A DNA stretch of 64,000 bases from Thermodesulfobacteriota bacterium. GTDB taxonomy: Bacteria; Desulfobacterota_D; UBA1144; Nemesobacterales; Nemesobacteraceae. A program made the translations under genes and the position numbers. The first letter of the stretch is position 1, and each line of letters starts with the position of its first letter. A model generated the notes under the pieces. The model was not told the DNA's origin. It saw only the letters and a list, made by a program, of their open reading frames with translations, and ran no database searches. Positions 15,218 to 54,014 of the stretch are shown here, one piece after another. Where the stretch lies: the NCBI GenBank assembly GCA_965232155.1, contig OZ246948.1:1016434-1080433 (forward strand), read 5' to 3'.

Positions 15218-16550
15218 ATGCGCGTAGCTATCATCGGAAATGGGGTAACGGGGGTTGCGGCCGCCCTGAGTATACGCAGGCTCCAGCCCGACTGGGAGAT
15301 CATCATGATCTCGGGGGAGTCCTCTTTTCACTATTCCCGCCCGGCGCTCATGTACATATTCATGGGCCACATGAGCTACAAGGACACCAAGCCTTACGAG
15401 GACAGTTTCTGGAGGAAAAACCGCATTGATTTGGTAAGGGGATGGGTTACAGAAATTGATGCCGCCGGGAAAAAGCTCATTATGCACGAAAAAGATCCCG
15501 TTTCGTTCGATAAGCTGCTTGTCGCCACGGGATCCAAGTCAAACAAGTTCGGTTGGCCCGGCCAGGGTCTTGGAGGAGTACAGGGCTTCTACAGCCTTAT
15601 GGATCTCAGGCTTCTTTACGAGAACGTAAAAGGAGCCCGAAGTCGTCGGAGGTGGCCTGATCGGGATCGAGCTTGCTGAATGCTCCATTAAAAGGAGCCC
15701 GAAGCGCCGTTATCGTCGGAGGTGGCCTGATCGGGATCGAGCTTGCTGAGATGCTCCATTCGCGCAATATCCACGTCACACTGGTGAGAGAAGAGTCCTA
15801 CTGGATAACGTCCTTCCGATTGAGGAATCACGGATGATAAACCGCGTGATTCTGGAGCAGGGGATTGATCTCAGGCTCTTAACGGAGCTAAAGGAGATAG
15901 TAGGGGACGATTCGGGGAGAGTGCGGGGAGTCGTAACCAGCAAGGAGGAATTCATAGAATGCCAGATCGTCGGTCTTACCGCGGGAGTAAGTCCCAACAT
16001 AGCTCTTGCCAAGGCAAGCGGGATAAAGACAGGGAGGGGGATTCTGGTTGACCGCAGCTTCAGGACCGATACCCCGGATGTGTTTGCCGCCGGGGACTGC
16101 GCCGAGATAATCACTGAGGGGGATGGAAGGAACCTTATTCAGCAGGTCTGGTACACCGGCAAGAACCAGGGAAAAGTGGCTGGAGAGGCGATAGCCGGCC
16201 GACACAGCGTGTATGACCCCGGAATCTGGTATAACTCGGCTAAATTCTTCGATCTTGAGTACCAGACTTACGGTAACGTGAGAAACGTTCCTGCCCAGGG
16301 GGAGGACAGTTTTTACTGGGAGCATCCCGATCACAGCCGTTCAGTAAGAATCGTTACGAAAGACGGAGCCGTCTGCGGCATAAACGTCATGGGTCTTCGC
16401 TACAGCCACAGGGTTTGCGAGAGCTGGGTGGCGGAGAAAAGGCCCCTTGACTATGTGCTCGATCATCTGGGGGATGCCAATTTCGATCCGGAATTCTATG
16501 AAGAATGTGAAGCGGAAATAATAAGGGAGATAAGGAAACAGGCCGCCTGA
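15218..16550 (+). pseudogene. NAD(P)H-dependent FAD oxidoreductase of the pyridine-nucleotide-disulfide family (ferredoxin/rubredoxin-reductase or NirB-N-like), disrupted
   Basis: N-terminus MRVAIIGNGVTGVAAA...YSRPALMY (no redox-active Cys), second Rossmann RSAVIVGGGLIGIELAEML, C-terminal GDCAEI. The reading frame is broken by an imperfect 62/71-nt tandem duplication (15628-15760) and a 1-nt deletion near 15804 (GG vs GGG). Confidence 0.6.
15628..15760 (+). repeat. Imperfect tandem duplication (62 nt plus 71 nt) inside the flavoprotein gene
   Basis: Copy 1 is aaaaggagcccgaagTcgtcgg...gctgaAtgctccatt. Copy 2 carries an extra CGCCGTTAT and an extra G. Deleting copy 1 restores ...ENVKGARSAVIVGGGLIGIELAEMLHSRNIHVTLVREESYW. 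Confidence 0.8.
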
Positions 16551-23699: not shown

Positions 23700-24598
23700 G
23701 TGATGAATTGTTTCGTAAAATCACACGGGTTGGGAAATGACTATATCGTCCTAGACAGTGCCGAAATAGATTTTGATCTCGGCAAATCCGCCATAGAACT
23801 TATATGCCACAGGAATTACGGCATAGGTTCGGACGGCATACTGCTTCTGGTTCCCCCTGCAAGGGGGGATTTCGGGCTCAGGATTCTCAATCCTGACGGA
23901 AGCGAGGCGGAAAAAAGCGGAAACGGGCTCAGGATTTTCGCAAAGTATCTCTACGAGAGAAAACACGCCTCGGACAAGACTTTTTCCATAGATACTCCCG
24001 GCGGTCTTGTTACTGCCGAAGTTGAGGAAGAAGACGGAAAAGTCCACCACGTCACTGTGGAGATGGGCGCTGCGACTTTCAGGGCGGATGAGATACCGGT
24101 AGATATAGAAGAGGAAGAAGCGGTGGCGCAGCGTCTGGTTCTCGGCGCGGGAGAATTTGATTTTACCGCCGTTTCGGTGGGGAATCCCCACTGCGTTATT
24201 TTCTTCGAAGAGCTAAGAGAAGATCTGATAAGAGAACTCGGACCCGAAATAGAAACCCATCCCGTCTTTCCTAACAGAACTAATGTTCAGTTCGCCCAGG
24301 TGATCTCGCCCGACAGTGTTCGTATTTTGATCTGGGAGAGGGGGGCTGGCTACACTCTTGCCTCAGGAAGCAGTTCCTGCGCGGTCGCCGCCGCGTGTGT
24401 GAAGTCCGGTCTTACGGACCGGAAGCTCAGGGTGCTGATGCCTGGCGGGCATCTCGACATAAGCGTCGGGGAGGACTGGGCGATCACTATGCGCGGCGAG
24501 GTGGAAGAAGTCTTTCTCAGGAATGTTAAGCGACGATCTTCTTTACAAGCTAAGAAATCCTTCCTCTATAAACTTATAGGGCAACCGGTTCATTTTTT
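23700..24598 (+). CDS. dapF: Diaminopimelate epimerase; no stop codon before the downstream amidohydrolase start (apparent in-frame fusion)
   Basis: NCFVKSHGLGNDYIVLD, GNGLRIF, SVGNPHCVIF and ERGAGYTLASGSSSCAVAAA: both DapF half-domains with catalytic Cys residues. Frame continues ...GEVEEVFLRNVKRRSSLQAKKS...MERLLLAADVV. Confidence 0.85.
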
Positions 24599-25855
24599 GA
24601 TGGAGAGACTGCTTTTAGCGGCGGATGTGGTGATTCCGGTAAGTTCTGAACCGATTCGCAATGGAGCCATCGTGGTGGACGGGGGACGTATCATTGACAT
24701 CGGAACATCAGATAGAATCGAGGCTGACTATCCCGGCTTGCAGAAAATAAGAAAGCCGAACTCTATAATACTCCCTGGGTTCGTAAACGCCCACACCCAC
24801 CTTGAACTCAGTTGGACAAAGGGGAAGATCAGGGGTTTCGAAGATTTCACCGGATGGCTCGAGAGGCTGATCACTCTTAAAGCCGGCGGGGTTGATCAAG
24901 ATCTTGTGGAGGATTCAATGAGGGCGGGGATTCGCGACGTCATTGAGAGCGGAGTCACCACAGTCGGAGAGATATCTTCCCTGGATTTCGGCGGGAGGGA
25001 GATTCTTAGAAGCTCGGGAATGAGAATTATTGCATTTCTTGAACTTTTTGACCGCATCTCCCAAGACTTTCCTCGCTCGAATTTCAAAGAGAGGGCCTCT
25101 ATGAGGAAAGACCTTTTCCTCATGCGCCTTATTCCTGCGGGCCGGGGCTTCTGGAGGCGGTTTTTGCCTGTGCGCGCGAAAACGCGGTTGCGGCGGGAAT
25201 CCACCTGGGCGAGAGTCCCGATGAAGTCGATTTTCTGAAGAACCTGCCCAATGAATTTGAACGGAAAATCTTTCCGCTCATAAAAAAAGAAATCTTCAAA
25301 AGGCCACGGGCCGATACTCCGACACGCTACATAAACAGATTCCTCCGCGGAAAAAACATAAGACTCTCCGCAGTTCACATGGTTCAAGTGGCGGATGAAG
25401 ATATGGAGATAATCCGAGGCGCCGATATCGGCATTATTCTCTGCCCAAGAAGCAATGTTTTTCTCAGAGTGGGCAAACCTAACCTGAGCCAGATGCTTGA
25501 TCATAAAAGAGTAGGGCTCGGGACCGACGGACTTTCAAGCAACTCGGATCTTGATTTCTTTCAGGAGATCAGGTTCCTGCATGAAATTATGGTTGAGCAG
25601 GGAATACGGCAAAGCACCCGTCTGGCGGTCTACTTTGCGACTCTGGGCGGAGCAAGGGCTCTTTTTATCGAGAAGAAGACGGGGAGTCTTGAGGTCGGAA
25701 AAAGTGCTGATGTCATATGCATTGGGTGCAAAGGGGCAATTGCCCCGGACCCCTATTCCTCGATAGTGTCTTCAAAGCCGGAGGACCTCCAGTTCTCAAT
25801 TGTAGGAGGGAATTTCATCTACAAAAAGGACTCTCCGGCTCCTTGTGAGCATTAG
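24599..25855 (+). CDS. Amidohydrolase-superfamily deaminase (MtaD/SsnA/aminofutalosine-deaminase-like), frameshifted near 25115
   Basis: ADVVIPVSSEPIRNGAIVVDGGRIIDIGT...ILPGFVNAHTHLELS. A -1 frameshift then follows in a CCC run (should read ...RKDLFPHAPYSCGPGLLEAVF...HLGESPDEVDFL...). It continues as track ORF 25379..25855 (GTDGLSSNSDLDFFQE...GSLEVGKSADVI). Confidence 0.6.
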
Positions 25856-25872: not shown

Positions 25873-26949
25873 ATGGCTGAACCTAAGCCCGAAAAGCTTT
25901 TTGTCTATGGAACCCTGCGAAAGGGCGGGGTAAGAAGCGGGCACCTTGAGCGATGCAGGTTGCTCAGGATGATAAAAGTTCCCGGGATTCTTTACCGTAC
26001 GCCTTTTGATTATCCGGCGGCCGTGTTTGACGAGACTTCCCCGCTTGCCGTCCTGGGAGAGCTTTATGAACTTCCCCCGGATTCTGAAGTCTTCATCGGA
26101 AGCGTGGACCGTCTCGAAGGGGTGAATGAAAAGCTTTTTTCAAGATCCGTTATCTGCTTGGAAGAGGAGTTTTTTTACGCCTATGAACCCGGCCCTGAGC
26201 TCAGAAGGCAGATTAGCGATGCGGACATAATAAAAAGCGGCAACTGGTTCTCGGGCCCCGACATCTGCGGCGCGGATCCTTTTTCTTTTGCCGTCAGTTT
26301 TGAAAACATCCAGAAGCGGTATTACAGGATGAAATCTGACGGTCGCTCAGAAGACAATATTTTTCTTGAAGGCACGGTCCCGGTTCTGGTTACCTGTCCG
26401 CACTCAACCGCTCACACGAGAATGGGAAAACTGAAACGCCATGAGTTCTATACCGCCGCTCTGGGAGCCGTGCTGCATATGGTTCTCGGCTGCCACTTTC
26501 TTTACGCGAACAGGGAACAGGAAACAGACCCGAATTACTATGACGACTGCGGTTTTAAGTCTGCGCTCGGAAGAGTTCTCTCCGCGAAGAAAATAGATCT
26601 GGTTGTGGACATACACGGTACCGGAAACGAGAGGTCCGAGGACCTGTTTCCAGGCGTGGGGGTTGGAAGGGAGTTCCTTCTTTCGGCGCCTGATGTTCTT
26701 GACAGATTTTATCTTGTCGCCGAAGAACATGGAATTGTGACCGGAAGCGCCGATATATTCCCCGCCGCAAGGCAGATGACCGTGGCCAAGTTCGCTGCGA
26801 AGCGGTTTTCGGTTCCCGCAATCCAGGTTGAGATAAGCGACAGGCTCAGGATGCCATGGCGACGGGAAGATGAGTTCCGCCGTCTCATAGGATTTCTTCT
26901 CGGATTTGTTGAAAAAGTAATCTCGGAGAAAACTGGCCAGAGCGGATAA
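25873..26949 (+). CDS. Fusion of a gamma-glutamyl cyclotransferase (AIG2/GGCT-like) domain and an N-formylglutamate-amidohydrolase-like (FGase/zinc-hydrolase) domain
   Basis: N-terminus KLFVYGTLRKGG...YPAAVF...GELYEL (GGCT fold motifs). C-terminus VLVTCPHSTAHTR...VDIHGTGNERSED resembles FGase/succinylglutamate-desuccinylase-type metal sites. Confidence 0.5.
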   Translation: MAEPKPEKLFVYGTLRKGGVRSGHLERCRLLRMIKVPGILYRTPFDYPAAVFDETSPLAVLGELYELPPDSEVFIGSVDRLEGVNEKLFSRSVICLEEEFFYAYEPGPELRRQISDADIIKSGNWFSGPDICGADPFSFAVSFENIQKRYYRMKSDGRSEDNIFLEGTVPVLVTCPHSTAHTRMGKLKRHEFYTAALGAVLHMVLGCHFLYANREQETDPNYYDDCGFKSALGRVLSAKKIDLVVDIHGTGNERSEDLFPGVGVGREFLLSAPDVLDRFYLVAEEHGIVTGSADIFPAARQMTVAKFAAKRFSVPAIQVEISDRLRMPWRREDEFRRLIGFLLGFVEKVISEKTGQSG

Positions 26950-26959
26950 TGGAATAAAA

Positions 26960-27793
26960 TTACTCGCAGAGAATATCAAGCATTGGGTTCTCGGCTATGA
27001 TTCCCTTTGCGCGGGCTTTTTCAAAAAGATACTCAAGAGCCCCGGTTCCGCTCTCGCCAAGATCCCTGGTCCACTCGTTTACGTACATTAAAACGAACTT
27101 CTCTCCCGTATCCTCGCTCATCCCCCTTCCAAAGCGCATTGCGTAATCAAGAGCCTCCTTTTTGTTTGAAAGTGCGTACTCTATGCTTTCTTTGTGTACC
27201 CGAAGAACTTCGGCGTCAAGCCCCGGGGGTATGTCTCTTCTAAGCACGTTAAGTCCAAGCGGCATCGGAAGATCGGTCTCCTCGGCCCACATTGCCCCGA
27301 GATCGAACAGAAGCTCAAGCCCCGTCTCTTCGTAGGTAAGCTGTCCTTCATGTATAAGAAGACCCGCGTCCGCCTCTCCTTCCAGTACCTTGTCCATGAT
27401 CTTGTCAAAGGGCTCTTCCACAGGGATGAAGTCATCAGCATAGAGACTCAGAAGAAGATATGCGGTAGTAAGCTTTCCAGGCACCGCGACGGTTTTTCCC
27501 CTGAGGTCAGAAACTTTCTCCTTGGCGACCACAATGGGGCCGTACCCTTTCCCCATGCTGGCACCGCAGGAAAGAATCCGATAGCGGTCCTGCACGCTAA
27601 GGTATCCGTGGGCGGAGATTGCCGTGACTTCGAGTTCCGCCTTCATCGCTCTGTTATTAAGGGACTGTATGTCTTCAATCACGTGCTCGAAGTCGATTTC
27701 CTCCGAAGCCACCTTTCCGTTCGCTATGGCGTAGAACATGAACGCGTCGTCCGCGTCGGGGCTGTGCCCCAGCTTCATCATCCGTTTTTCCAT
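26960..27793 (-). CDS. mqnD: 1,4-dihydroxy-6-naphthoate synthase (futalosine pathway)
   Basis: MKLGHSPDADDAFMFYAI matches the MqnD signature GxSPCPNDTFxFxAL; MqnA/MqnD periplasmic-binding-protein-like fold family. Confidence 0.7.
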   Translation of the reverse strand: MEKRMMKLGHSPDADDAFMFYAIANGKVASEEIDFEHVIEDIQSLNNRAMKAELEVTAISAHGYLSVQDRYRILSCGASMGKGYGPIVVAKEKVSDLRGKTVAVPGKLTTAYLLLSLYADDFIPVEEPFDKIMDKVLEGEADAGLLIHEGQLTYEETGLELLFDLGAMWAEETDLPMPLGLNVLRRDIPPGLDAEVLRVHKESIEYALSNKKEALDYAMRFGRGMSEDTGEKFVLMYVNEWTRDLGESGTGALEYLFEKARAKGIIAENPMLDILCE

Positions 27794-27816
27794 TCTCGTC
27801 TCCTTTTGGATTTCGT

Positions 27817-28653
27817 CTACGACGGGTCTGTGTAGAAGTTGATTTCGTTTTTCTTCTCTATTTCGTTCAGCTCAAAAAGAAAGTCGCGGTATTTGATGAG
27901 CCCGTCAATTTTGGGACCGTCAAGGTCGTATTTAATTCTTTTTTGAAGGTAAGTCATACACTGTTCCCTGTTGAGTCCAAGTTTTCGAGATTCGATATCT
28001 ACTATCTCCGGGATGAGTTCCACTCCCTGTTCTCTTATCGAAACGAGGCATTTGCAGCCCTGCGCGGTAGCGTCATCTCCTTTTTTCATCGCCATTACCG
28101 CATATACAAAGGGAAGGGCGGTTTCCCTAGTCCAGAGTTCCCCTAGGTCGTACGTGAAAGCGGATTTTTCTGCGGAAAGGTAACGGGCCCTAAGACCCGC
28201 GTTGCCGATAAGCATCCCGGCGTCAACTCCCTCAAGGAAACCGTTTCCGGGCTCTCTTTTTACGTATTCGGGTTTAAGCCCCAAAAAGAGTTCGAGAACG
28301 ATTCTGAGCAGGGCCGTTGAACTCCTGGACCTGCTGTCAACCGATACGCTCCTTATTTCCGTTATTTTTTTCCGTGCCTTGAGTATGACACTGTCGACTT
28401 TTCCGAAAGAGGATATGGAAATGTGGGGCAGAATGCAGTAGTTGTCGGTTCTTAGAAATTCAACCGAGGGAATGGGTGCGATATCCACTACTCCTTCCGA
28501 CAGGTTCTCCGAAAGAAGGAAAGGGTCAAAATACATTATATTGAAATTGTGCTCCACAACGCCCTTTTCCAGAGGATAAACAAACGGTCGCATGTTAAGA
28601 AAAGGCGCTGCTCCGAGGTTTATCAAGGACCTGTCCCCACTTTCCTGACTCAT
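27817..28653 (-). CDS. mqnA: Chorismate dehydratase (futalosine pathway)
   Basis: LINLGAAPFLNMRPFVYPL matches the MqnA signature (GxIxYLNxxPL). Start taken at MSQESG, whose ATG overlaps the dgt stop by 4 bp; the track ORF extends to 28761. Confidence 0.7.
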   Translation of the reverse strand: MSQESGDRSLINLGAAPFLNMRPFVYPLEKGVVEHNFNIMYFDPFLLSENLSEGVVDIAPIPSVEFLRTDNYCILPHISISSFGKVDSVILKARKKITEIRSVSVDSRSRSSTALLRIVLELFLGLKPEYVKREPGNGFLEGVDAGMLIGNAGLRARYLSAEKSAFTYDLGELWTRETALPFVYAVMAMKKGDDATAQGCKCLVSIREQGVELIPEIVDIESRKLGLNREQCMTYLQKRIKYDLDGPKIDGLIKYRDFLFELNEIEKKNEINFYTDPS

Positions 28654-29720
28654 AAGTGCGCTTCCCCTGTCTCCTGGCCTTTTGTCCATCTGCTCGGAAG
28701 GAATATCTTCTGGTAAAGCGAAAGTGCGTAAAGGTCGGACATTCCCGCTATGAAGTCGCATACCTCTCTTTGCAGGGTTTCACCCTCCCGCACGGGCGAT
28801 TTACGGAAGGTCTCGCGGAAGATTTTCTCGTTCTCGCAGAAATACAGATAAAGTTCCTTTACGACTTTCTTGGATTTGTTGTGAAGCGAAAGCAGCCGCT
28901 CGCTTACGTAGACATTCTCGTAGAGATACCTTCTGAGCCCCAAAAGCGCTTCGAACACTTCTTCGCTCATCAGAATTCTCATTCTGTCTCTTTCGATGGT
29001 CTGCTCAATGATGTCCACTACCATCGTGTTTATTCTTTGCGAAGCCGTATCTCCGAGGACCGAGATATATTCTGCGGGAACGTCGCCGGGCGATATGATA
29101 CCCGAGCGGATTGCGTCATCAAGATCGTGATTCGTGTAAGCGACAAGATCCGAAATCTTGGTTACCTGGCCTTCAAGGGTAAGCGGCCTGTTTTCCTTGG
29201 TATCTATTCCTTCCTTGCCCCATCCCTTGGAATGTTTAGCTATTCCCTCTCTGACTTCGTGCGTCAGGTTGAGTCCCGTTCCGTCGCGTTCCAGCACATC
29301 CACGATCCTTACGCTCTGATGAACGTGCTTGAATCCGCCCGGGAACACTTCGTTCAGCCCTTCCTCGCCGGAGTGGCCGAAGGGAGTGTGACCGAGGTCG
29401 TGACCGAGTGCTATGGCTTCGGTCAGGTCTTCGTTAAGCATAAGTGCTTTCGATATCGTCCTGGCTATCTGGGAGACCTCTATTACATGAGTCAGCCTTG
29501 TGCGGTAATGATCGTTGGTCGGAGAGATGAATACCTGGGTTTTATGCTTGAGCCTTCTGAAGGCCTTGGAGTGAATTACCCTGTCCCTGTCCCTCTGAAA
29601 GCACGTTCTTATATCGCATTCGCGCTCGGGGTTTACTCTTCCTTTGGATTCACAGCTCAGCGTCGCCATCGGACAGAGCAGTTTTTTTTCGTTTTCTTCG
29701 GTCTGCTTTCGTATGAGCAA
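28650..29720 (-). CDS. dgt: dGTP triphosphohydrolase-like HD-domain protein
   Basis: FQRDRDRVIHSKAFRRLKHKTQVF...HYRTRLTHVIEVSQIAR...HDLGHTPFGH: dGTPase family motifs. Confidence 0.85.
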   Translation of the reverse strand: MLIRKQTEENEKKLLCPMATLSCESKGRVNPERECDIRTCFQRDRDRVIHSKAFRRLKHKTQVFISPTNDHYRTRLTHVIEVSQIARTISKALMLNEDLTEAIALGHDLGHTPFGHSGEEGLNEVFPGGFKHVHQSVRIVDVLERDGTGLNLTHEVREGIAKHSKGWGKEGIDTKENRPLTLEGQVTKISDLVAYTNHDLDDAIRSGIISPGDVPAEYISVLGDTASQRINTMVVDIIEQTIERDRMRILMSEEVFEALLGLRRYLYENVYVSERLLSLHNKSKKVVKELYLYFCENEKIFRETFRKSPVREGETLQREVCDFIAGMSDLYALSLYQKIFLPSRWTKGQETGEAHL

Positions 29721-31415: not shown

Positions 31416-32666
31416 TTAGCTACCATATGGCAACCTCGTATCAATTTCACGGTTCGCAGGGACTGTGCTAATACCAGAACCCTCCCCGTGCAGTCGCGCC
31501 ATTCCCAGACGCCTTATGTTTATTGCCGCATTCGTGTCCGCATTGGACGCATAGCCGCAACTCACACACAGGAACCGTGCTTGGGTTTTTCGGTTCTCTT
31601 TATCTGTATGCCCGCACTCGGAGCATGTCTGACTCGTGTATGCGGGATTTACTTCTATTAGTCTCCCGCACTTGTACTCAAGATTTCTTCTAAGTTCTCC
31701 CAAGGCTGTATCAAGCATTGCCCTGTTAAGTCCCGCCTTCTGCTTTACGTTCTTTCCCGGATTCTCTATCGTACCCTTTGCGGAAGCCGTCATATTCTTC
31801 ACCTTCAGATCTTCCACAACTATTGTTCCGCACTTGTCCGCAATTTCCCTGGTGGTCTTGTGAATCCAGTCCTTGCGGATACTGGCTATCTTTCTGCTCA
31901 CCTTCGCAAGTTTCTTCTTCGTGTCCTTCCGCCTGTTAGACCCCTTTATCTGTCTTGCAATCCTTCGCTGATACCACTTTCGCCTTGCTTCTTTCTTCTT
32001 TAAGTCGGGCAGGAAGTAAAAGTTTCCATCCGAAGTGGCTACCTGACGTGCGTTCATGTCAACGCCCAGAATCTCACCGTCATCCGGTCTTTTCTCCACT
32101 TCCACTTCATAGAATACGAATGCCCGCCACCTGTGCCCGTCATGGCGAAGCACTACCTGCCTGGGTACGCCATCTTCCCAGGGGTTTCCTCCCCTGCGGG
32201 TCATCTTTACCCAACCGACCTTGGGGATAAGAAGCAGAGAGTATTTTTTATCAATATTTTTTATTCTGAAGTTCTCCTTGCTTGGAAGCGTGAAGCTGGG
32301 TACGTGCCTGTTTCTGCTTATGGGCTTCGGAAAACCTTTCTTGCCAGCCATCGCCTCTTTCAATGCATCCGCAAAATACTTGAGGGTATGCTTTACAGGA
32401 TTGGCGGGAAGTTCAAGCATCCACTCCGTCTCATGCCTTAGCCTGGTGAACTCCACACCGAGACTGAAATAACTGGTATGCGGTCTCTGCCCTTTGTCAT
32501 TCTTGAATGCCTGGTAGTCGGCAAGGTTCTTTTCCCTGAAATGGTTCCAGACATATCTACAGGCTCCCGCTATCTGGAACATCTTGGTTGCCTTAGCCTT
32601 AGCAGTAGGCAGAACGACAAACTCTACGGTACGTATTTGTTTAGTCATTGCAATATATCGTATCAT
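31416..32666 (-). CDS. tnpB: TnpB (IS200/IS605-family OrfB, RuvC-like RNA-guided endonuclease); alternative start at M7 (32648)
   Basis: N-terminus RTVEFVVLPTAKAKATKMFQIAGACRYVWNHF. RuvC-I GVDMNARQ, RuvC-II IVVEDLKVKNM, C-terminal NPAYTSQTCSECGH...FLCVSCGYASNADTNAAINI (Zn ribbon plus RuvC-III). All three catalytic acidic residues are present. No tnpA adjacent. Confidence 0.85.
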   Translation of the reverse strand: MIRYIAMTKQIRTVEFVVLPTAKAKATKMFQIAGACRYVWNHFREKNLADYQAFKNDKGQRPHTSYFSLGVEFTRLRHETEWMLELPANPVKHTLKYFADALKEAMAGKKGFPKPISRNRHVPSFTLPSKENFRIKNIDKKYSLLLIPKVGWVKMTRRGGNPWEDGVPRQVVLRHDGHRWRAFVFYEVEVEKRPDDGEILGVDMNARQVATSDGNFYFLPDLKKKEARRKWYQRRIARQIKGSNRRKDTKKKLAKVSRKIASIRKDWIHKTTREIADKCGTIVVEDLKVKNMTASAKGTIENPGKNVKQKAGLNRAMLDTALGELRRNLEYKCGRLIEVNPAYTSQTCSECGHTDKENRKTQARFLCVSCGYASNADTNAAINIRRLGMARLHGEGSGISTVPANREIDTRLPYGS

Positions 32667-49928: not shown

Positions 49929-51723
49929 ATGAAGAACTATTCTTCCACATCAGCGATAGCGGATATAAAAGCAAGGCTCAGCATAGTAGATGTTATACAG
50001 GGCTTTGTTTCCCTTAAAAAATCTGGAAAGAACCATATCGGGCTCTGCCCGTTCCACGACGACAACAACCCTTCCATGCAGGTAAATGATGAGAAGGGTT
50101 TTTTTCATTGCTTCAGCTGCGGAGCCGGAGGAGATGTATTCGGCTTCCTGATGAGATACAGCAATATAGGCTTCCCCGAAGCCTTAAAAGAACTTGCCAA
50201 GAAAGCCGGAGTCAGACTCCCGGCTCCGCGTCGGCGCACCGAAAGTGAGAAGAAAAAAGAGGCCACTTCGGCGAGGTTTTTCAAGATAAATTCTCTTGTC
50301 TGTTCGTTTTACAGCGATAATCTCCACAAGGTCGGGAAAAAACTCCGCGCGGGCTAGAAAGTACCTGGAATCCAGAGGAATCGGTCCAGAGATAATCGAG
50401 GAGTTCAAGCTTGGCTTTGCCCCAGACAGCTGGGATGCCGTTGTGAAATTCGCTTCAGCGAAAAATATAGGTATCAAGGAACTCGAAAAACTTGGTCTTG
50501 TCGCTGCGAAGAAGAGCGGAAGCGGCCATTACGATCGGTTCCGAAACAGGATTGTTTTTCCCATAGATGAGATAACGGGACAAATTTGCGGTTTCGGCGG
50601 CAGAACTCTGAGCGAAGATGAACCCAAACAGCCGAAATACATGAATTCCCCTGAATCCCCGGTTTTCGACAAAAGGAGCATTCTTTACGGAATTTACCGC
50701 TCGAAAAATGAAATCGGAAGAGAACGGAAAGCCGTTTTGGTTGAAGGCTACATGGATTTCATAAAGCTCTACGCAAATGGAATACGCAACGTGGTCGCCA
50801 CCTTGGGGACGGCTTTTACGAATGACCACGCCAGGCTTCTGCGACGTTTCTGCGAGGAGGTGGTGATTGTCTACGACGGCGATACCGCCGGGATACGTTC
50901 CGCTGTCCGGGCCGGAGAGATTCTTCTTGAGCAGGGGATTTCTTCAAGCATTTGCCGTATTCCCGATGGCCTCGACCCCGATGATTATCTGGAGGAGCAC
51001 GGATCTGAGAGTCTCGCCGGGCTGATCGAAGCCGCCGTTGATGTCTCGGATTTTATTATTGACGACACTTTTGCAAGGTACAGGGAAAAGAAAATGTCTT
51101 CCGGAGAGTCGATAAAATTTCTTGTGGATTTAGTTTCAAAAATAAAAGACCCGGTCAGAAGGGCTGAAGCTGTTTCCAAGGTAACAGGGCTTTTCGGGAT
51201 AAGGGAGTCTGAGTTCCTCTCTATGGTGAAGACTTCGGATCCGGGGAGAAACCGCGGGTCGCTTGCGCCGGCGACCCTGATTCCGGAAAAGAACATTCAT
51301 GAGAGAGAAATTGTTAGGATACTGCTTAAATTTCCCCACCTGATGAACGCCGAGAAGATTGAAAATATCGGTAGGCATTTTGAAAATGGTGATTTAAAGG
51401 TTATTCTCAAACGTGTGGGTGAAGGGGAGTTTACCGAAGTTTCCTCCCTGATGAGTTCTTTTGAGAAAATCGAGATGCAGCAACTGCTGAGCGAATTGAT
51501 TTTTTCTTCGGATAATTTGGTAGATGAGACGATTTCGGAGAAAATATTAAAGGACTGCGTGAAGGAGCTTGAACTGAAAAATATAGCTTTTAAGCGTAAT
51601 GAAGTAATAGAGAGAATCCGCAAGCAGCGTGACTCTTCGGATAAGAACCTCGAAAGAAAACTTGTTGAACAATACAGGGATCTGGTGAGTATGGAAAAGA
51701 CCATAAAAGAGGCTGCAAGTTGA
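49929..51723 (+). CDS. dnaG: DNA primase, with an apparent +1 frameshift in an A6 run near 50325
   Basis: Zn-finger [30 protein letters not shown], then ...[12 protein letters not shown]| after which the frame shifts to [14 protein letters not shown]... (removing one A restores the frame). TOPRIM EGYMDF...VYDGDTAGI. Confidence 0.85.
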
Positions 51724-53213
51724 ACCCAAACGACGAGACCAACGGACTGGGAAACGAAGTCGGCATGCAGGATGAAGGGGAGTTCCCTGAGTCCGGACAG
51801 GGTTTTCAAAGTCCCCCGTCTGATTCTCAAGCGGAAGACAAGCTCAAACACGTAAAGAGTCCTGATTCCGACCAAGATCCTATAAGGTCTTACATTCTCG
51901 CTATTGCGCAGCACTCCCTCCTTTCCAAGGAGGAAGAAGTTGAGATAGCAAGACAGATTGAAAAAGGTAAGAAAATAATCGCGAGAATGATAATAGAGAA
52001 CCCCTTCATGATGAAAAAGGTTCTCAAACTCGAAGAAGAGATAAAAGAAGGCACGCTCGGTGCGGGCGACAGTTCCTACCAGGGCGAGTACATAGAATCC
52101 TCCGCTGACGGCGAAACATATAGAAATTCCGCAAAGAACTTTCTTCCAATCAAGGAACTTTTTGCTGAGACCGAAGAGCTGAGAAAAAAACTCGATACTA
52201 CGACGCTTTCAGATAGCGAACGAGCGAAGATCTCTAAGCAAATCAGAAAGAACAACGAGCGGACCGTAGAACTTCTTGACGAAATCGATTTTTCCTCTGC
52301 GCAGGCCAGCAGGATATACAACCTGGCCGTCGAGTATGTGGACAGGATTGAGGGCGGGGATTGTGACTGCATTATGGATGGTTCAGACGATGGGATCGGC
52401 AATGGTTCGAGATCTGAATATTCCGAGGAGGAAATCGCTTCTCTTAAAAAGGTGCTTAGTAGGTTTGAAAAAGCAAAGAAGGCTACTAAGAAAGCCAGAA
52501 AAACACTTATCGAGTGCAACCTCAGACTTGTAGTCAGTATAGCGAGAAAATACGTTAACAGAGGCCTGCCGTTCCTCGATCTGGTTCAAGAAGGCAATAT
52601 GGGGTTGATGAAAGCGGTTGAAAAGTTCGAACATGGAATGGGATACAAATTTTCAACCTGTGCCACGTGGTGGATAAAGCAGGCAATTACGCGCGCAATA
52701 GCTGATCAGGGAAGTCTTATAAGAATTCCTGTTCACATGACCGAAAATATAAACAGGCTGAACAAAATCTCGAGATCCCTGATGCAGAAACTGGGGAGAG
52801 AACCCAAGCCGGAAGAGATAGCCGAGGCAATGGACATACCTCTTGATAAGGTCTTGAAGATCATGAAGGTGTCACGTGACCCGATTTCCCTGGAGTCCCC
52901 GATTGGCGAGGACGAGTGCAGGCTGATGGATATTATCTCGGACCCGGCTTCCGCTTCTCCTCTTGACATGCTCGAGACCAAAGAATTGAACCGTATCATG
53001 CGCAACGCGCTCTGCACCAGTCTCAGTAACGGAGAGGAAGGAGTCGTTAAAATGCGTTTTGGTATAGATGAAGACAAGGAATACACCCTTGAAGAAATAG
53101 GGAAGAAGTTGAACGTTACCCGCGAGAGGATAAGACAGATCGAGGTAAAGGCCATTAAGAAGCTTAAAAGGTTCGGAAGAGCTCTTCCCATACGGGGTCT
53201 TAACACTGACTGA
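51720..53213 (+). CDS. rpoD: RNA polymerase sigma-70 factor RpoD (alternative ATG start at 51765)
   Basis: Region 1.2 [21 protein letters not shown], region 2 [41 protein letters not shown], region 4 [29 protein letters not shown]. Confidence 0.9.
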
Positions 53214-53258: not shown

Positions 53259-53372
53259 TAGGGTGGCTATGCTGAAGGGGAAGCACCCGGTCCCATCCCG
53301 AACCCGGAAGTTAAGTCCTTATAGGCCGATGATACTGCTCCTTTCAGGAGTGGGAAAGTAGGTGGCTGCCCT
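53259..53372 (+). rRNA. rrf: 5S ribosomal RNA, not linked to 16S/23S within this window
   Basis: GGGTGGCTATGCTGAAGGGGAAGCACCCGGTCCCATCCCGAACCCGGAAGTTAAGTCC...GCCGATGATACTG...GGGAAAGTAGGTGGCTGCCC carries the universal 5S loop motifs (CCCATCCCGAAC, GAAGTTAAG, GGGAAAGTAGGT) and 5-prime/3-prime helix I complementarity. Followed by T6. Confidence 0.85.
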
Positions 53373-53402
53373 TTTTTCTTTCCTTGCTTTCTCAACTTTC
53401 CG

Positions 53403-54014
53403 GTGCCTGCGATGTCAAAGACCAACGTTGCCGTGTTTGTTTCCGGAAGCGGAACAAATCTTCAGGCAGTGATAGATTCCGGCATAGAATCTGCAAACAT
53501 AGCCGTGGTTGTCTGTGATACTCCAGGAGTCATGGCAATTGAGAGGGCCAGGAAACACGGTATTCCCTTAGAACTCGTAAACAGCAGGGATTTTGAATCA
53601 AAGGAAGAGTTCGAAAGGCAGATAGTAGCGAAAATCGACAGATATGACATAGGTCTTGTCGTACTTGCCGGGTTCATGAGGATATTTACTCCTTATTTCA
53701 TAGGCCGTTTCGCGAACCGCATCATCAATATTCATCCTTCCTTGCTTCCTTCTTTTCCGGGAACAAATTCGGTAAGACAGGCACTTGACTACGGAGTGAA
53801 ACAGACGGGTTGTACCGTCCACTTCGTGGAAGAGAAAGTTGACGCTGGTCCGATTATTTTTCAGGCAGTTGTTCCGGTTACGGAGGAAGATACGGAAAAG
53901 ACTCTGCTTGAAAAAGTCCATACCGAGGAACACAGGATACTGCCTGAAGCCATAAGGCTTTTCTGCGAGGGAAAACTGACCCTCAGTGGAAGAAAAGTCC
54001 TGATTTCCTCCTAA
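53403..54014 (+). CDS. purN: Phosphoribosylglycinamide formyltransferase
   Basis: VAVFVSGSGTNLQAV...LAGFMRI...NIHPSLLPSFPG. Confidence 0.9.
   Translation: MPAMSKTNVAVFVSGSGTNLQAVIDSGIESANIAVVVCDTPGVMAIERARKHGIPLELVNSRDFESKEEFERQIVAKIDRYDIGLVVLAGFMRIFTPYFIGRFANRIINIHPSLLPSFPGTNSVRQALDYGVKQTGCTVHFVEEKVDAGPIIFQAVVPVTEEDTEKTLLEKVHTEEHRILPEAIRLFCEGKLTLSGRKVLISS

What the first reader, a model, noticed from the sequence alone, without database searches (positions are those of the whole stretch)
25873..26949. Unusual fusion: gamma-glutamyl cyclotransferase-like domain plus N-formylglutamate-amidohydrolase-like domain
Residues 1-120 carry the AIG2/GGCT fold signatures (LFVYGTLRKGG, YPAAV, GELYEL). 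The remaining ~240 residues resemble the FGase / zinc-hydrolase family (CPHSTAH...DIHGTG...E). Joining a cyclotransferase that releases 5-oxoproline or cyclised gamma-glutamyl amines to an amidohydrolase suggests a two-step gamma-glutamyl or formyl-amide catabolic enzyme that has not been characterised as a single polypeptide.
Basis: inference. Interest (0 to 1): 0.5.

Follow-up and report, generated by a model that had tools for sequence, protein, structure and literature searches.

The report
Dadabacterial cyclotransferase–amidohydrolase fusion enzyme
This is a real, conserved two-domain gene of the uncultured Dadabacteria that joins a gamma-glutamyl cyclotransferase domain to a divergent, unannotated relative of N-formylglutamate amidohydrolase and poly-gamma-glutamate hydrolase; it probably breaks down a glutamate-containing amide in two steps, but its substrate is unknown.

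Summary
ORF 25873-26949 (+) encodes 358 aa. Residues 9-125 are a GGACT/AIG2-like domain (Pfam E=8e-10) with the YGTL motif and the catalytic Glu82 equivalent intact.

A profile of this domain finds 1,469 cluster representatives, mostly standalone or cell-wall-anchored "hypothetical proteins". Of 134 relatives tested, 66 hit PF05013. So "FGase-like" holds at superfamily level, as a new unannotated family.

The fusion is confined to class Candidatus Dadabacteria (35 species genomes), plus one degenerate Acidobacteriota copy. In all 40 distinct loci it directly follows an adenosine-type deaminase (aminofutalosine/MTA deaminase-like), and DapF lies upstream in 38.

Best mechanism, inferred: the metallo-amidohydrolase frees the alpha-amine of a gamma-linked glutamyl residue, and the cyclotransferase then releases 5-oxoproline plus the amine. 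The substrate is unknown, and a nucleoside/futalosine role is not excluded. This is a new variant of known kinds, of moderate interest.

The parts
25873..26949 (+). Whole gene: 358-aa two-domain protein (GGACT-like N-domain plus FGase/PghP-superfamily C-domain). No signal peptide is evident by eye, so it is presumed cytoplasmic.
25897..26247 (+). N-terminal GGACT/AIG2-like cyclotransferase domain (aa 9-125)
25906..25917 (+). Y12-G13-T14-L15, the YG(S/T)L substrate-pocket motif of GGCT-fold enzymes
   Evidence: Invariant or nearly invariant in 114 sequences. Aligns to Tyr7-Leu10 of GGACT.
26116..26118 (+). E82, the equivalent of catalytic Glu82 of human GGACT (motif DRLEG)
   Evidence: Aligned to LDDFE of 3jub. 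At least 90% conserved. Catalytic role taken from PMC12569754 and PMC2954230.
26236..26247 (+). S122-G-N-W125 motif at the end of the N-domain (G123 and W125 invariant); also present in YkqA and YtfP (SGDW)
26260..26928 (+). C-terminal domain (aa ~130-352): a divergent FGase/PghP-superfamily putative metallo-amidohydrolase belonging to an unannotated family
26398..26421 (+). P176-H177-S-T-A-H181-T-R183 motif. H177 is invariant across the broad family and is a presumed metal ligand equivalent to PghP His40. R183 is invariant. H181 is invariant only within the fusion family.
   Evidence: The ligand role is inferred from PMC6506827.
26527..26535 (+). D219-P-N221 loop (DPNYYD); D219 is nearly invariant family-wide and is a presumed metal or substrate contact
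26608..26622 (+). D246-I-H248-G-T250 strand-end motif. H248 is invariant family-wide and is a presumed metal ligand equivalent to PghP His103. D246 is invariant or nearly so.
26824..26850 (+). Q318-V-E320-...-R326. E320 is the presumed general base and aligns with PghP/PghL Glu165 (carboxypeptidase A Glu270). R326 aligns with PghP/PghL Arg171, which anchors a substrate carboxylate.
   Evidence: Profile alignment to 3a9l (E=0.11). Residue roles from PMC6506827. Invariance.
24600..25855 (+). Upstream operon partner: an Amidohydro_1 adenosine-type deaminase (aminofutalosine/MTA deaminase-like). In this window it is broken by a 1-nt deletion near 25061.
   Evidence: It directly precedes the fusion in 40 of 40 distinct loci.
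23700..24580 (+). dapF (diaminopimelate epimerase), first gene of the conserved trio. In this window a 1-nt insertion near 24515 removes its stop codon and joins its frame to the amidohydrolase.

Best explanation
The gene encodes a cytoplasmic bifunctional enzyme that degrades a glutamate-containing amide in two consecutive steps. Step 1: the C-terminal domain is a divalent-metal amidohydrolase of the FGase/PghP superfamily. Its presumed metal site is H177 and H248, with D246 or D219 as a third ligand; E320 is the presumed general base; and R183, K188 and R326 are presumed to bind substrate carboxylates. It hydrolyses an acyl-NH bond on the alpha-amine of a glutamyl residue, which is the bond type cleaved by both HutG (formyl-Glu) and PghP/PghL (gamma-Glu-Glu). 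Step 2: this frees the alpha-amino group of a residue whose gamma-carboxyl is still amide-linked. That is exactly the substrate a GGACT-type cyclotransferase needs. The N-domain (YGTL pocket, Glu82) then lets the free alpha-amine attack the gamma-amide, releasing 5-oxoproline and the amine or peptide. Candidate substrates are oligo-gamma-glutamyl chains (poly-gamma-glutamate fragments, or folate or F420 tails) and peptidoglycan stem peptides (L-Ala-gamma-D-Glu-mDAP). SHOWN: the domain identities, conservation of the catalytic residues in both domains, the restriction of the fusion to one lineage, and the conserved operon. INFERRED: metal dependence, the bond cleaved, the order of the steps, and the substrate.
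For: - The N-domain is a GGACT-family member with its catalytic apparatus intact.
- The best structural neighbours of the C-domain are FGase-family proteins and gamma-glutamyl hydrolases (2odf 16.7, 2q7s 16.1, 3a9l 15.4, 5onj 14.8; confirmed).
- The residues invariant family-wide (H177, H248, E320, R326) fall on PghP His40, His103, Glu165 and Arg171, by motif position or by profile alignment.
- Invariance of these residues across 1,469 clusters argues for an active enzyme.
- PghL stops at gamma-Glu di- and trimers and releases no free Glu (PMC6506827), so a cyclotransferase would be a logical finishing partner.
- Relatives of the C-domain are fused to SLH, CWB2, SH3_3 and Cu_amine_oxidN1 modules, which points to a cell-envelope polymer (peptidoglycan or poly-gamma-glutamate) as the ancestral substrate class.
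- dapF lies in the same conserved gene string in 38 of 40 loci, and an RlpA-like DPBB+SPOR gene lies upstream in synteny type B.
- The full-length model has pTM 0.91, which suggests a fixed arrangement of the two domains.
Against: - There is no direct evidence for any substrate.
- The second metal ligand of PghP (Glu45) has no obvious equivalent, and the metal site could not be checked in 3D.
- The PghP residue alignment is statistically weak (E=0.11).
- The one invariant neighbour is a nucleoside-type deaminase, which this model does not explain.
- No separate GGACT and C-domain genes were found adjacent in other genomes: 0 of 43 GGACT-only loci.
- Three standalone relatives show no glutamate-related neighbourhood.
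- Known GGACT enzymes act on L-gamma-glutamyl, whereas peptidoglycan contains D-Glu.
- The dapF adjacency may simply reflect inherited gene order within one class.
Confidence: 0.4

Rival explanations
1. The protein belongs to nucleoside or futalosine-pathway metabolism. The C-domain has the phosphorylase/hydrolase-like fold also used by PNP, MTAN and futalosine hydrolase. In this reading it processes the product of the upstream adenosine-type deaminase, for example as a non-orthologous futalosine (MqnB-like) hydrolase or another purine-derivative hydrolase in menaquinone biosynthesis.
For: - The gene directly follows an aminofutalosine/MTA deaminase-like amidohydrolase in 40 of 40 distinct loci, with overlapping reading frames in four of them (L002, L003, L005, L007).
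- An MqnA/MqnD-family pair is convergent immediately downstream in synteny type A and about 5 kb away in type B.
- Foldseek lists H. pylori futalosine hydrolase, MTAN and PNP at E about 1e-4.
- An unrelated standalone homologue (L091) lies after a Bmp-type nucleoside ABC transporter and a CDA-fold deaminase.
Against: - Sequence homology runs to PF05013, not PNP_UDP_1.
- The conserved His, His, Glu and Arg residues fit a metallo-amidase, not an MTAN-type Asp/Glu site.
- Futalosine has no glutamyl moiety, so the intact GGACT domain would have no role.
- dapF in the same string shows that the operon mixes pathways.
- The contexts of two other standalone relatives show nothing nucleoside-related.
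Confidence: 0.12
2. There are two independent activities on one chain. Both domains are active enzymes but act on different substrates, for example general gamma-glutamyl-amine clearance and a separate deacylase. The fusion would then reflect co-expression and not a sequential pathway.
For: - Both domain families occur overwhelmingly as standalone proteins.
- There is no Rosetta-stone adjacency elsewhere.
- The fusion arose essentially once, in a single class.
Against: - The fusion has been kept intact down to about 38% identity, with invariant residues in both domains and at the junction (G123, W125).
- pTM 0.91 suggests fixed packing of the two domains.
- Both parent superfamilies centre on glutamate-amide chemistry, which makes a shared substrate the simpler reading.
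Confidence: 0.25
3. The C-domain is a non-catalytic binding or regulatory module (a pseudo-enzyme) that targets or gates the cyclotransferase.
For: - An Acidobacteriota homologue (L044) keeps the GGACT domain but has lost the PHxxxH and DxHGT motifs in its C-domain.
- The window protein has no direct Pfam match.
Against: In the Dadabacteria family, and across 1,469 related clusters, the putative catalytic residues H177, H248, E320 and R326 are invariant. That is the pattern expected of an active enzyme.
Confidence: 0.05
4. The ORF is an artefact: two adjacent genes merged by an assembly indel. The window shows such errors in neighbouring genes.
For: The window has a +1 and a -1 indel in dapF and the amidohydrolase relative to a 91%-identical genome, and a split Pyr_redox_2 gene.
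Against: - The same uninterrupted 343-365-aa architecture occurs in 119 protein clusters and 35 independent species genomes.
- The model is a single compact chain.
Confidence: 0.01

Closest known systems
Gamma-glutamylamine cyclotransferase GGACT (human/mouse A2LD1; PDB 3jub, 3juc, 1vkb) and its bacterial relatives BtrG, YkqA and YtfP (PF06094)
   Same: The N-domain matches PF06094 above threshold. It has the YGTL motif and the Glu82 equivalent, and the same fold. By sequence it is closest to the BtrG/YkqA/YtfP branch (YkqA 3e-11, YtfP 2e-10 against GGACT about 1e-4).
   Different: Known members are single-domain proteins, or tandem cyclotransferase domains in the case of YkqA (PMC12569754). 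None carries an amidohydrolase domain. Substrate and stereospecificity are unknown here.
N-formylglutamate amidohydrolase family (HutG; PF05013; structures 2q7s and 2odf/Atu2144)
   Different: The window protein does not match PF05013 or TIGR02017. Identity to the structures is 17-19%. No hut genes lie nearby. The neighbouring deaminase is nucleoside-type, not HutF-like (HutF models score about 65 bits against about 215 for the aminofutalosine deaminase model).
Poly-gamma-glutamate hydrolases PghP and PghL/YndL (MEROPS M86; PF05908; 3a9l, 5onj)
   Different: There is no PF05908 match (only 1 of 134 relatives). The Glu45 zinc ligand has no clear counterpart. PghP and PghL are secreted or phage enzymes acting on a capsule polymer, whereas this protein is cytoplasmic and fused.
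MTAN, futalosine hydrolase (MqnB) and purine nucleoside phosphorylases (PNP_UDP_1)
   Same: They share the general phosphorylase/hydrolase-like alpha/beta fold (Foldseek E about 1e-4). The genomic neighbourhood contains an aminofutalosine deaminase-like gene and MqnA/MqnD-family genes.
   Different: Structural similarity is much weaker, there is no sequence relationship, and the conserved residues are of a different type.

Membership tests
GGACT / AIG2-like (PF06094, GGCT-fold superfamily) | Match to the family HMM above the curated threshold | tested here: met
   PF06094, aa 9-125, 39.7 bits against a cut-off of 22.8, E=8.4e-10
GGACT / AIG2-like (PF06094, GGCT-fold superfamily) | YG(S/T)L motif lining the substrate pocket (Tyr7-Gly8-Thr9-Leu10 in GGACT) | tested here: met
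   Y12-G13-T14-L15. Y12 and G13 are invariant, and T14 and L15 are at least 90% conserved in 114 sequences. Aligned to GGACT. Motif definition.
GGACT / AIG2-like (PF06094, GGCT-fold superfamily) | Catalytic glutamate (Glu82 of human GGACT) | tested here: met
   Window E82 (DRLEG) aligns with LDDFE of 3jub. Invariant in the 30-sequence alignment and at least 90% conserved in the 114-sequence alignment.
GGACT / AIG2-like (PF06094, GGCT-fold superfamily) | GGCT beta-barrel fold | tested here: met
GGACT / AIG2-like (PF06094, GGCT-fold superfamily) | Cyclotransferase activity releasing 5-oxoproline from a gamma-glutamyl amine | not testable with these tools
   Requires an enzyme assay
N-formylglutamate amidohydrolase, HutG (PF05013 / TIGR02017) | Match to the family HMM above the curated threshold | tested here: not met
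   No PF05013 hit at E<=10 for the window C-domain. No TIGR02017 hit. Only sub-threshold hits in 6 of 21 family members (best E=0.0074).
N-formylglutamate amidohydrolase, HutG (PF05013 / TIGR02017) | FGase fold | tested here: met
N-formylglutamate amidohydrolase, HutG (PF05013 / TIGR02017) | Sequence homology traceable to the family (superfamily membership) | tested here: met
   66 of 134 relatives found with the C-domain profile (E<=1e-32) hit PF05013, best 4.2e-12
N-formylglutamate amidohydrolase, HutG (PF05013 / TIGR02017) | Histidine-utilisation gene context (hutH, hutU, hutI, hutF) | tested here: not met
   No hut genes among 40 annotated ORFs of the window or in related loci. The neighbouring amidohydrolase is nucleoside-deaminase-like.
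N-formylglutamate amidohydrolase, HutG (PF05013 / TIGR02017) | Hydrolysis of N-formyl-L-glutamate | not testable with these tools
   Requires an enzyme assay
Poly-gamma-glutamate hydrolase PghP/PghL (PF05908, MEROPS M86) | Match to the family HMM | tested here: not met
   No PF05908 hit for the window protein. Only 1 of 134 relatives hits it.
Poly-gamma-glutamate hydrolase PghP/PghL (PF05908, MEROPS M86) | Zn ligands His40, Glu45 and His103 | tested here: inconclusive
   The two His positions have invariant counterparts (H177 after strand 169-175, and H248 at the end of strand 243-250). No Glu lies at the Glu45-equivalent position. A 3D superposition was not possible.
Poly-gamma-glutamate hydrolase PghP/PghL (PF05908, MEROPS M86) | Catalytic Glu165 and carboxylate-anchoring Arg171 | tested here: inconclusive
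   The profile alignment places the family QxE...R (window E320 and R326) on PghP E165 and R171, but at E=0.11 only. Residue roles.
Futalosine hydrolase / MTAN (PNP_UDP_1) | Sequence or close structural membership | tested here: not met

The most novel reading that the evidence does not exclude
The C-domain founds a large, unrecognised family (at least 1,469 clusters at 50% identity) of metallo-amidases that act on glutamate-containing cell-envelope or cofactor amides. In Dadabacteria its fusion to a BtrG/YtfP-type cyclotransferase, together with the always-adjacent adenosine-type deaminase, would form a previously undescribed cytoplasmic pathway. One version is peptidoglycan stem-peptide recycling, in which gamma-D-Glu-mDAP is split by cyclisation instead of hydrolysis; this would be the first D-gamma-glutamyl cyclotransferase and an alternative to MpaA. 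The other version is a new step linked to futalosine-route menaquinone synthesis.
Probability: 0.12. Interest if true: 0.7.

Novelty: new variant of a known kind. Interest (0 to 1): 0.42.

Why it matters
If the two-step model is right, the fusion works as a natural "Rosetta stone". It would assign glutamate-amide chemistry to an unannotated enzyme family of well over a thousand sequence clusters, many of them anchored to Gram-positive cell walls. It would also suggest a physiological role for bacterial BtrG/YtfP-type cyclotransferases, most of which have no known function. And it would add a catabolic or recycling route (gamma-glutamyl peptide to 5-oxoproline) to the metabolism of Dadabacteria, a widespread uncultured marine and subsurface class. 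If instead the link to the aminofutalosine deaminase-like gene is functional, it could point to an unknown step or variant of futalosine-route menaquinone biosynthesis. Either way, the protein is currently annotated only as "gamma-glutamylcyclotransferase", which ignores two thirds of it.

Tried and rejected
- **Direct annotation of the C-domain.** Pfam at E<=10, NCBIfam, and phmmer/hmmsearch against PDB sequences returned only chance hits (NEMO, WecD).
- **Broad-family profile against PDB.** It gave only a weak PghP alignment (E=0.11) amid chance hits.
- **AlphaFold-database fold search.** The library was unavailable.
- **Testing whether the two active sites face each other.** Model coordinates and PAE are not exposed to scripts.
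- **Rosetta-stone test.** No C-domain homologue lay within +/-4 kb of 43 standalone GGACT genes (L045-L087).
- **An apparent standalone close relative.** P0123 proved to be a fused gene truncated at a contig edge.
- **Neighbourhood statistics for the broad family.** tblastn against plasmids found nothing, and against phages found one unannotated contig. Only three standalone contexts could be read, and they disagree with each other.
- **Literature.** Searches for the fusion, for Dadabacteria menaquinone synthesis and for non-HutG PF05013 members found nothing relevant.
- **Merged-gene artefact.** Considered because neighbouring genes carry indels, and rejected because the fusion is present in 119 clusters and 35 genomes.
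- **Hut-pathway HutG.** Rejected: no family-model match, no hut context, and a nucleoside-type neighbouring deaminase.
Full report
**1. The observation**

The window contains an ATG-initiated ORF at 25873-26949 (+) of 358 aa.

The gene is real. A search of 5.8 billion proteins returned 119 clusters with the same length (about 343-365 aa) and full-length coverage, down to 38% identity. The window protein itself is not in the collection. Its nearest relatives are 90-91% identical and come from MAGs labelled Candidatus Dadabacteria or Thermodesulfobacteriota. NCBI ranks Candidatus Dadabacteria as a class of the phylum Thermodesulfobacteriota.

**2. N-terminal domain**

Pfam gives PF06094 (GGACT) over aa 9-125, at 39.7 bits against a cut-off of 22.8.

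A family profile hits B. subtilis YkqA (3e-11), E. coli YtfP (2e-10) and mouse and human GGACT (6e-5 to 9e-4).

In these alignments Y12-G13-T14-L15 lies on the YGTL motif, and window E82 (DRLEG) lies on LDDFE, which carries Glu82 of human GGACT. The literature defines the GGACT catalytic site as Tyr7, Gly8, Thr9, Leu10 and Glu82, among other residues, and names Glu82 as the proposed catalytic centre (PMC2954230; PMC12569754). These residues are invariant or at least 90% conserved in 114 family members.

**3. C-terminal domain**

Residues ~130-352 have no match in Pfam (even at E<=10), NCBIfam or PDB sequences. A naive domain annotation would thus not confirm "PF05013".

An AlphaFold2 model built on the 114-sequence alignment is confident (mean pLDDT 92.8, pTM 0.91).

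- Foldseek independently gives 2odf as the best C-domain hit, with 5onj and 3a9l close behind.

The sequence evidence is transitive.

- 6 of 21 family C-domains hit PF05013 weakly (best E=0.0074).
- A profile of the C-domain searched against 1.84 billion cluster representatives found 1,469 proteins at E<=1e-3, 1,004 at E<=1e-10 and 213 at E<=1e-30.
- Of 134 of these relatives, 66 match PF05013 (best 4e-12), and one matches PF05908 (PghP).

The domain is therefore FGase-like at superfamily level. It forms a distinct family with no curated model in NCBIfam, and public sources annotate its members only as "hypothetical protein" or by a partner domain.

**4. Likely active site of the C-domain**

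Across the broad family, three residues are invariant: window H177, H248 and E320. Nearly invariant are P176, R183, T194, D219, N221, K229, D246 and Q318. In 16 true standalone members, R183, K188, D219, D246, H248, Q318, E320 and R326 are invariant. H181 is not.

PghP and PghL bind zinc through His40/41, Glu45/46 and His103/102. They use Glu165, the counterpart of carboxypeptidase A Glu270, at the end of strand beta7. In PghL, Arg171 anchors a substrate glutamate carboxylate (PMC6506827).

The broad-family profile aligns its QxEI...R motif exactly onto PghP Q-L-E165-I-S-S-A-Q-R171, although at E=0.11 only. In the model, E320 lies in strand 316-322, H177 follows strand 169-175, and D246 and H248 end strand 243-250.

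My inference is a metal site formed by H177 and H248 with D246 or D219, a general base at E320, and three conserved basic residues that bind an anionic (carboxylate-rich) substrate.

**5. Distribution of the fusion**

Among the top 150 representatives, only the first ~8 full-length ones (plus fragments) are GGACT fusions. None of the 134 other relatives has PF06094. Their partner domains are SLH (7), CDC48_N-like (7), CWB2, Cu_amine_oxidN1, SH3_3 and GH18, or signal-anchor plus acidic linker segments. Many relatives are therefore extracytoplasmic, cell-wall-associated proteins of Bacillota.

In 185,579 species-representative genomes, the full-length fusion was found in 35. All are Dadabacteria-type MAGs, although a few are labelled Deltaproteobacteria, "uncultured bacterium" or, in one case, Spirochaetia.

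One Acidobacteriota MAG (L044) encodes a 339-aa protein with an intact GGACT domain and a weakly homologous C-domain (E=6e-5). That C-domain has lost the PHxxxH and DxHGT motifs.

**6. Genomic context**

There are 40 distinct fusion-carrying places: the window plus L001-L043, less four duplicates.

- In 40 of 40, the gene directly follows an Amidohydro_1 gene of 411-422 aa.
- In 38 of 40, dapF lies before that gene. One exception is a contig edge.
- The amidohydrolase and fusion genes overlap by 4-8 nt in L002, L003, L005 and L007, and lie 2-19 nt apart elsewhere.

The amidohydrolase scores best against the NCBIfam "aminofutalosine deaminase family" model (213-220 bits over its full length, below the 320-bit cut-off). 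Its closest solved structures are MTA/SAH deaminases and aminofutalosine deaminases (3lnp, 4dyk, 4f0r, 7lkj, 3v7p, 2imr). HutF models score only about 65 bits.

Two synteny types exist.

- **Type A**, which includes the window: dodecin-dapF-amidohydrolase-fusion, followed convergently by two MqnA/MqnD-family genes, an HD phosphohydrolase, hisF and hisA.
- **Type B**: an aminotransferase and an RlpA-like DPBB+SPOR gene upstream; a large FAD/FeS oxidoreductase, CofC and an aldehyde dehydrogenase downstream; and an MqnA-like gene about 5 kb away.

The trio is the invariant unit. In the window, a strong sigma-70-like site (11 of 12 positions) lies upstream of the dodecin gene.

The rest of the annotated window is housekeeping. 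It contains no hut genes, no further mqn genes, and no recognisable peptidoglycan-recycling genes.

**7. Mechanism**

The two best-characterised relatives of the C-domain both cleave an amide whose nitrogen is the alpha-amine of a glutamate. HutG cleaves formyl-NH-Glu, and PghP/PghL cleave gamma-Glu-NH-Glu. A GGACT-type enzyme needs a gamma-glutamyl amide with a free alpha-amine.

The simplest way to combine these two facts is a two-step reaction on one chain. The C-domain removes an acyl group from the alpha-amine of a gamma-linked glutamyl residue. The N-domain then cyclises that residue to 5-oxoproline and expels the amine. PghL stops at gamma-Glu di- and trimers and releases no free glutamate, so a cyclotransferase is a natural finishing activity.

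Candidate substrates are oligo-gamma-glutamates (capsule fragments, or folate or F420 tails) and peptidoglycan stem peptides. The peptidoglycan candidate is weakly suggested by the cell-wall modules of relatives, by dapF and by the RlpA-like neighbour.

This is inference. I put it at about 0.4.

**8. Rivals**

The strongest unexplained fact is the invariant nucleoside-type deaminase next door.

- The C-domain fold is shared at a distance with PNP, MTAN and futalosine hydrolase (Foldseek E about 1e-4, TMt about 0.4).
- One unrelated standalone homologue lies behind a Bmp-type nucleoside transporter and a CDA-fold deaminase.
- Against this, the fold and sequence affinities are clearly stronger to the metallo-amidases, the GGACT domain would have no role, and two other standalone contexts show nothing similar.

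I give this rival about 0.12. Two independent activities on one chain gets about 0.25, a non-catalytic C-domain about 0.05, and an assembly artefact about 0.01. The artefact reading is refuted.

**9. Verdict**

The domain calls are right, with the C-domain only at superfamily level, and the fusion is genuinely unusual and uncharacterised. The function remains untested.
- This is a new variant of known kinds. It is not categorically new.
- Interest is moderate. The most useful by-product is the recognition of a large unannotated FGase/PghP-like family, for which this fusion gives the first functional hint.

Noticed in passing
window 24515 and 25061 (genes at 23700-25855): Relative to a 91%-identical relative (L004, GCA_022822065.1), the window has a 1-nt insertion near the end of dapF and a 1-nt deletion inside the amidohydrolase. 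As a result dapF loses its stop codon and reads in frame into the first ~160 codons of the amidohydrolase, and the rest of that gene is in another frame. This could be assembly indels or real pseudogenisation; the fusion gene itself is intact.
   Followed up: partly
window 31416-32666 (-): A 416-aa ORF with OrfB_IS605 and Cas12f1-like TNB domains (a TnpB-type transposon protein) lies between hisA and the EVE-domain gene. The closest relative, L004, has no gene there, so this looks like a recent IS200/IS605-family insertion.
   Followed up: partly
window 15218-15679 and 15834-16550 (+): A Pyr_redox_2 oxidoreductase is split across two ORFs, covering profile positions 1-125 and 190-278. This is another probable frameshift and suggests an indel-prone assembly.
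   Followed up: no
window 53259-53374 (+): A complete 5S rRNA gene (86.7 bits) stands alone between rpoD (51720-53213) and purN (53403-54014). There is no 16S or 23S match and no tRNA anywhere in the 64 kb, so the 5S gene appears unlinked from the other rRNA genes.
   Followed up: partly
L044 3026-4045 (Acidobacteriota MAG DASXTB010000310.1): A 339-aa protein has an intact GGACT domain (YGTL, GEIY, DRLEG) and a weakly homologous C-domain (E=6e-5) in which the PHxxxHxR and DxHGT motifs are lost (VFPSKNP, VELEGDW). This is a degenerate or pseudo-enzyme version of the fusion outside Dadabacteria, without the dapF/amidohydrolase context.
   Followed up: partly
L091/L092 311-6678 (Thermoanaerobacterales MAG): A standalone C-domain homologue (P0132) lies downstream of a Bmp-type (nucleoside-binding) ABC transporter, a 150-aa CDA-fold deaminase and an HTH regulator. 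This is a second, independent adjacency of the family to a nucleoside or nucleobase deaminase. The sample is a single case, and two other standalone contexts do not show it.
   Followed up: partly
proteins P0130-P0265 (relatives of window aa 130-352): The C-domain defines a large family (1,469 clusters at 50% identity) with no NCBIfam model. Only sub-threshold or partial PF05013 matches were found. Members are annotated as hypothetical proteins, and many are fused to SLH, CWB2, SH3_3 or Cu_amine_oxidN1 modules or to a CDC48_N-like domain, or carry signal anchors.
   Followed up: partly
window 26960-28761 (-) and related loci: Two adjacent VitK2_biosynth (MqnA/MqnD-family) paralogues are convergent with the fusion gene, with only 10 nt between the two stop codons in the window. 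An aminofutalosine deaminase-like gene is on the other side. No MqnB, MqnC or MqnE was seen in the 64 kb.
   Followed up: partly
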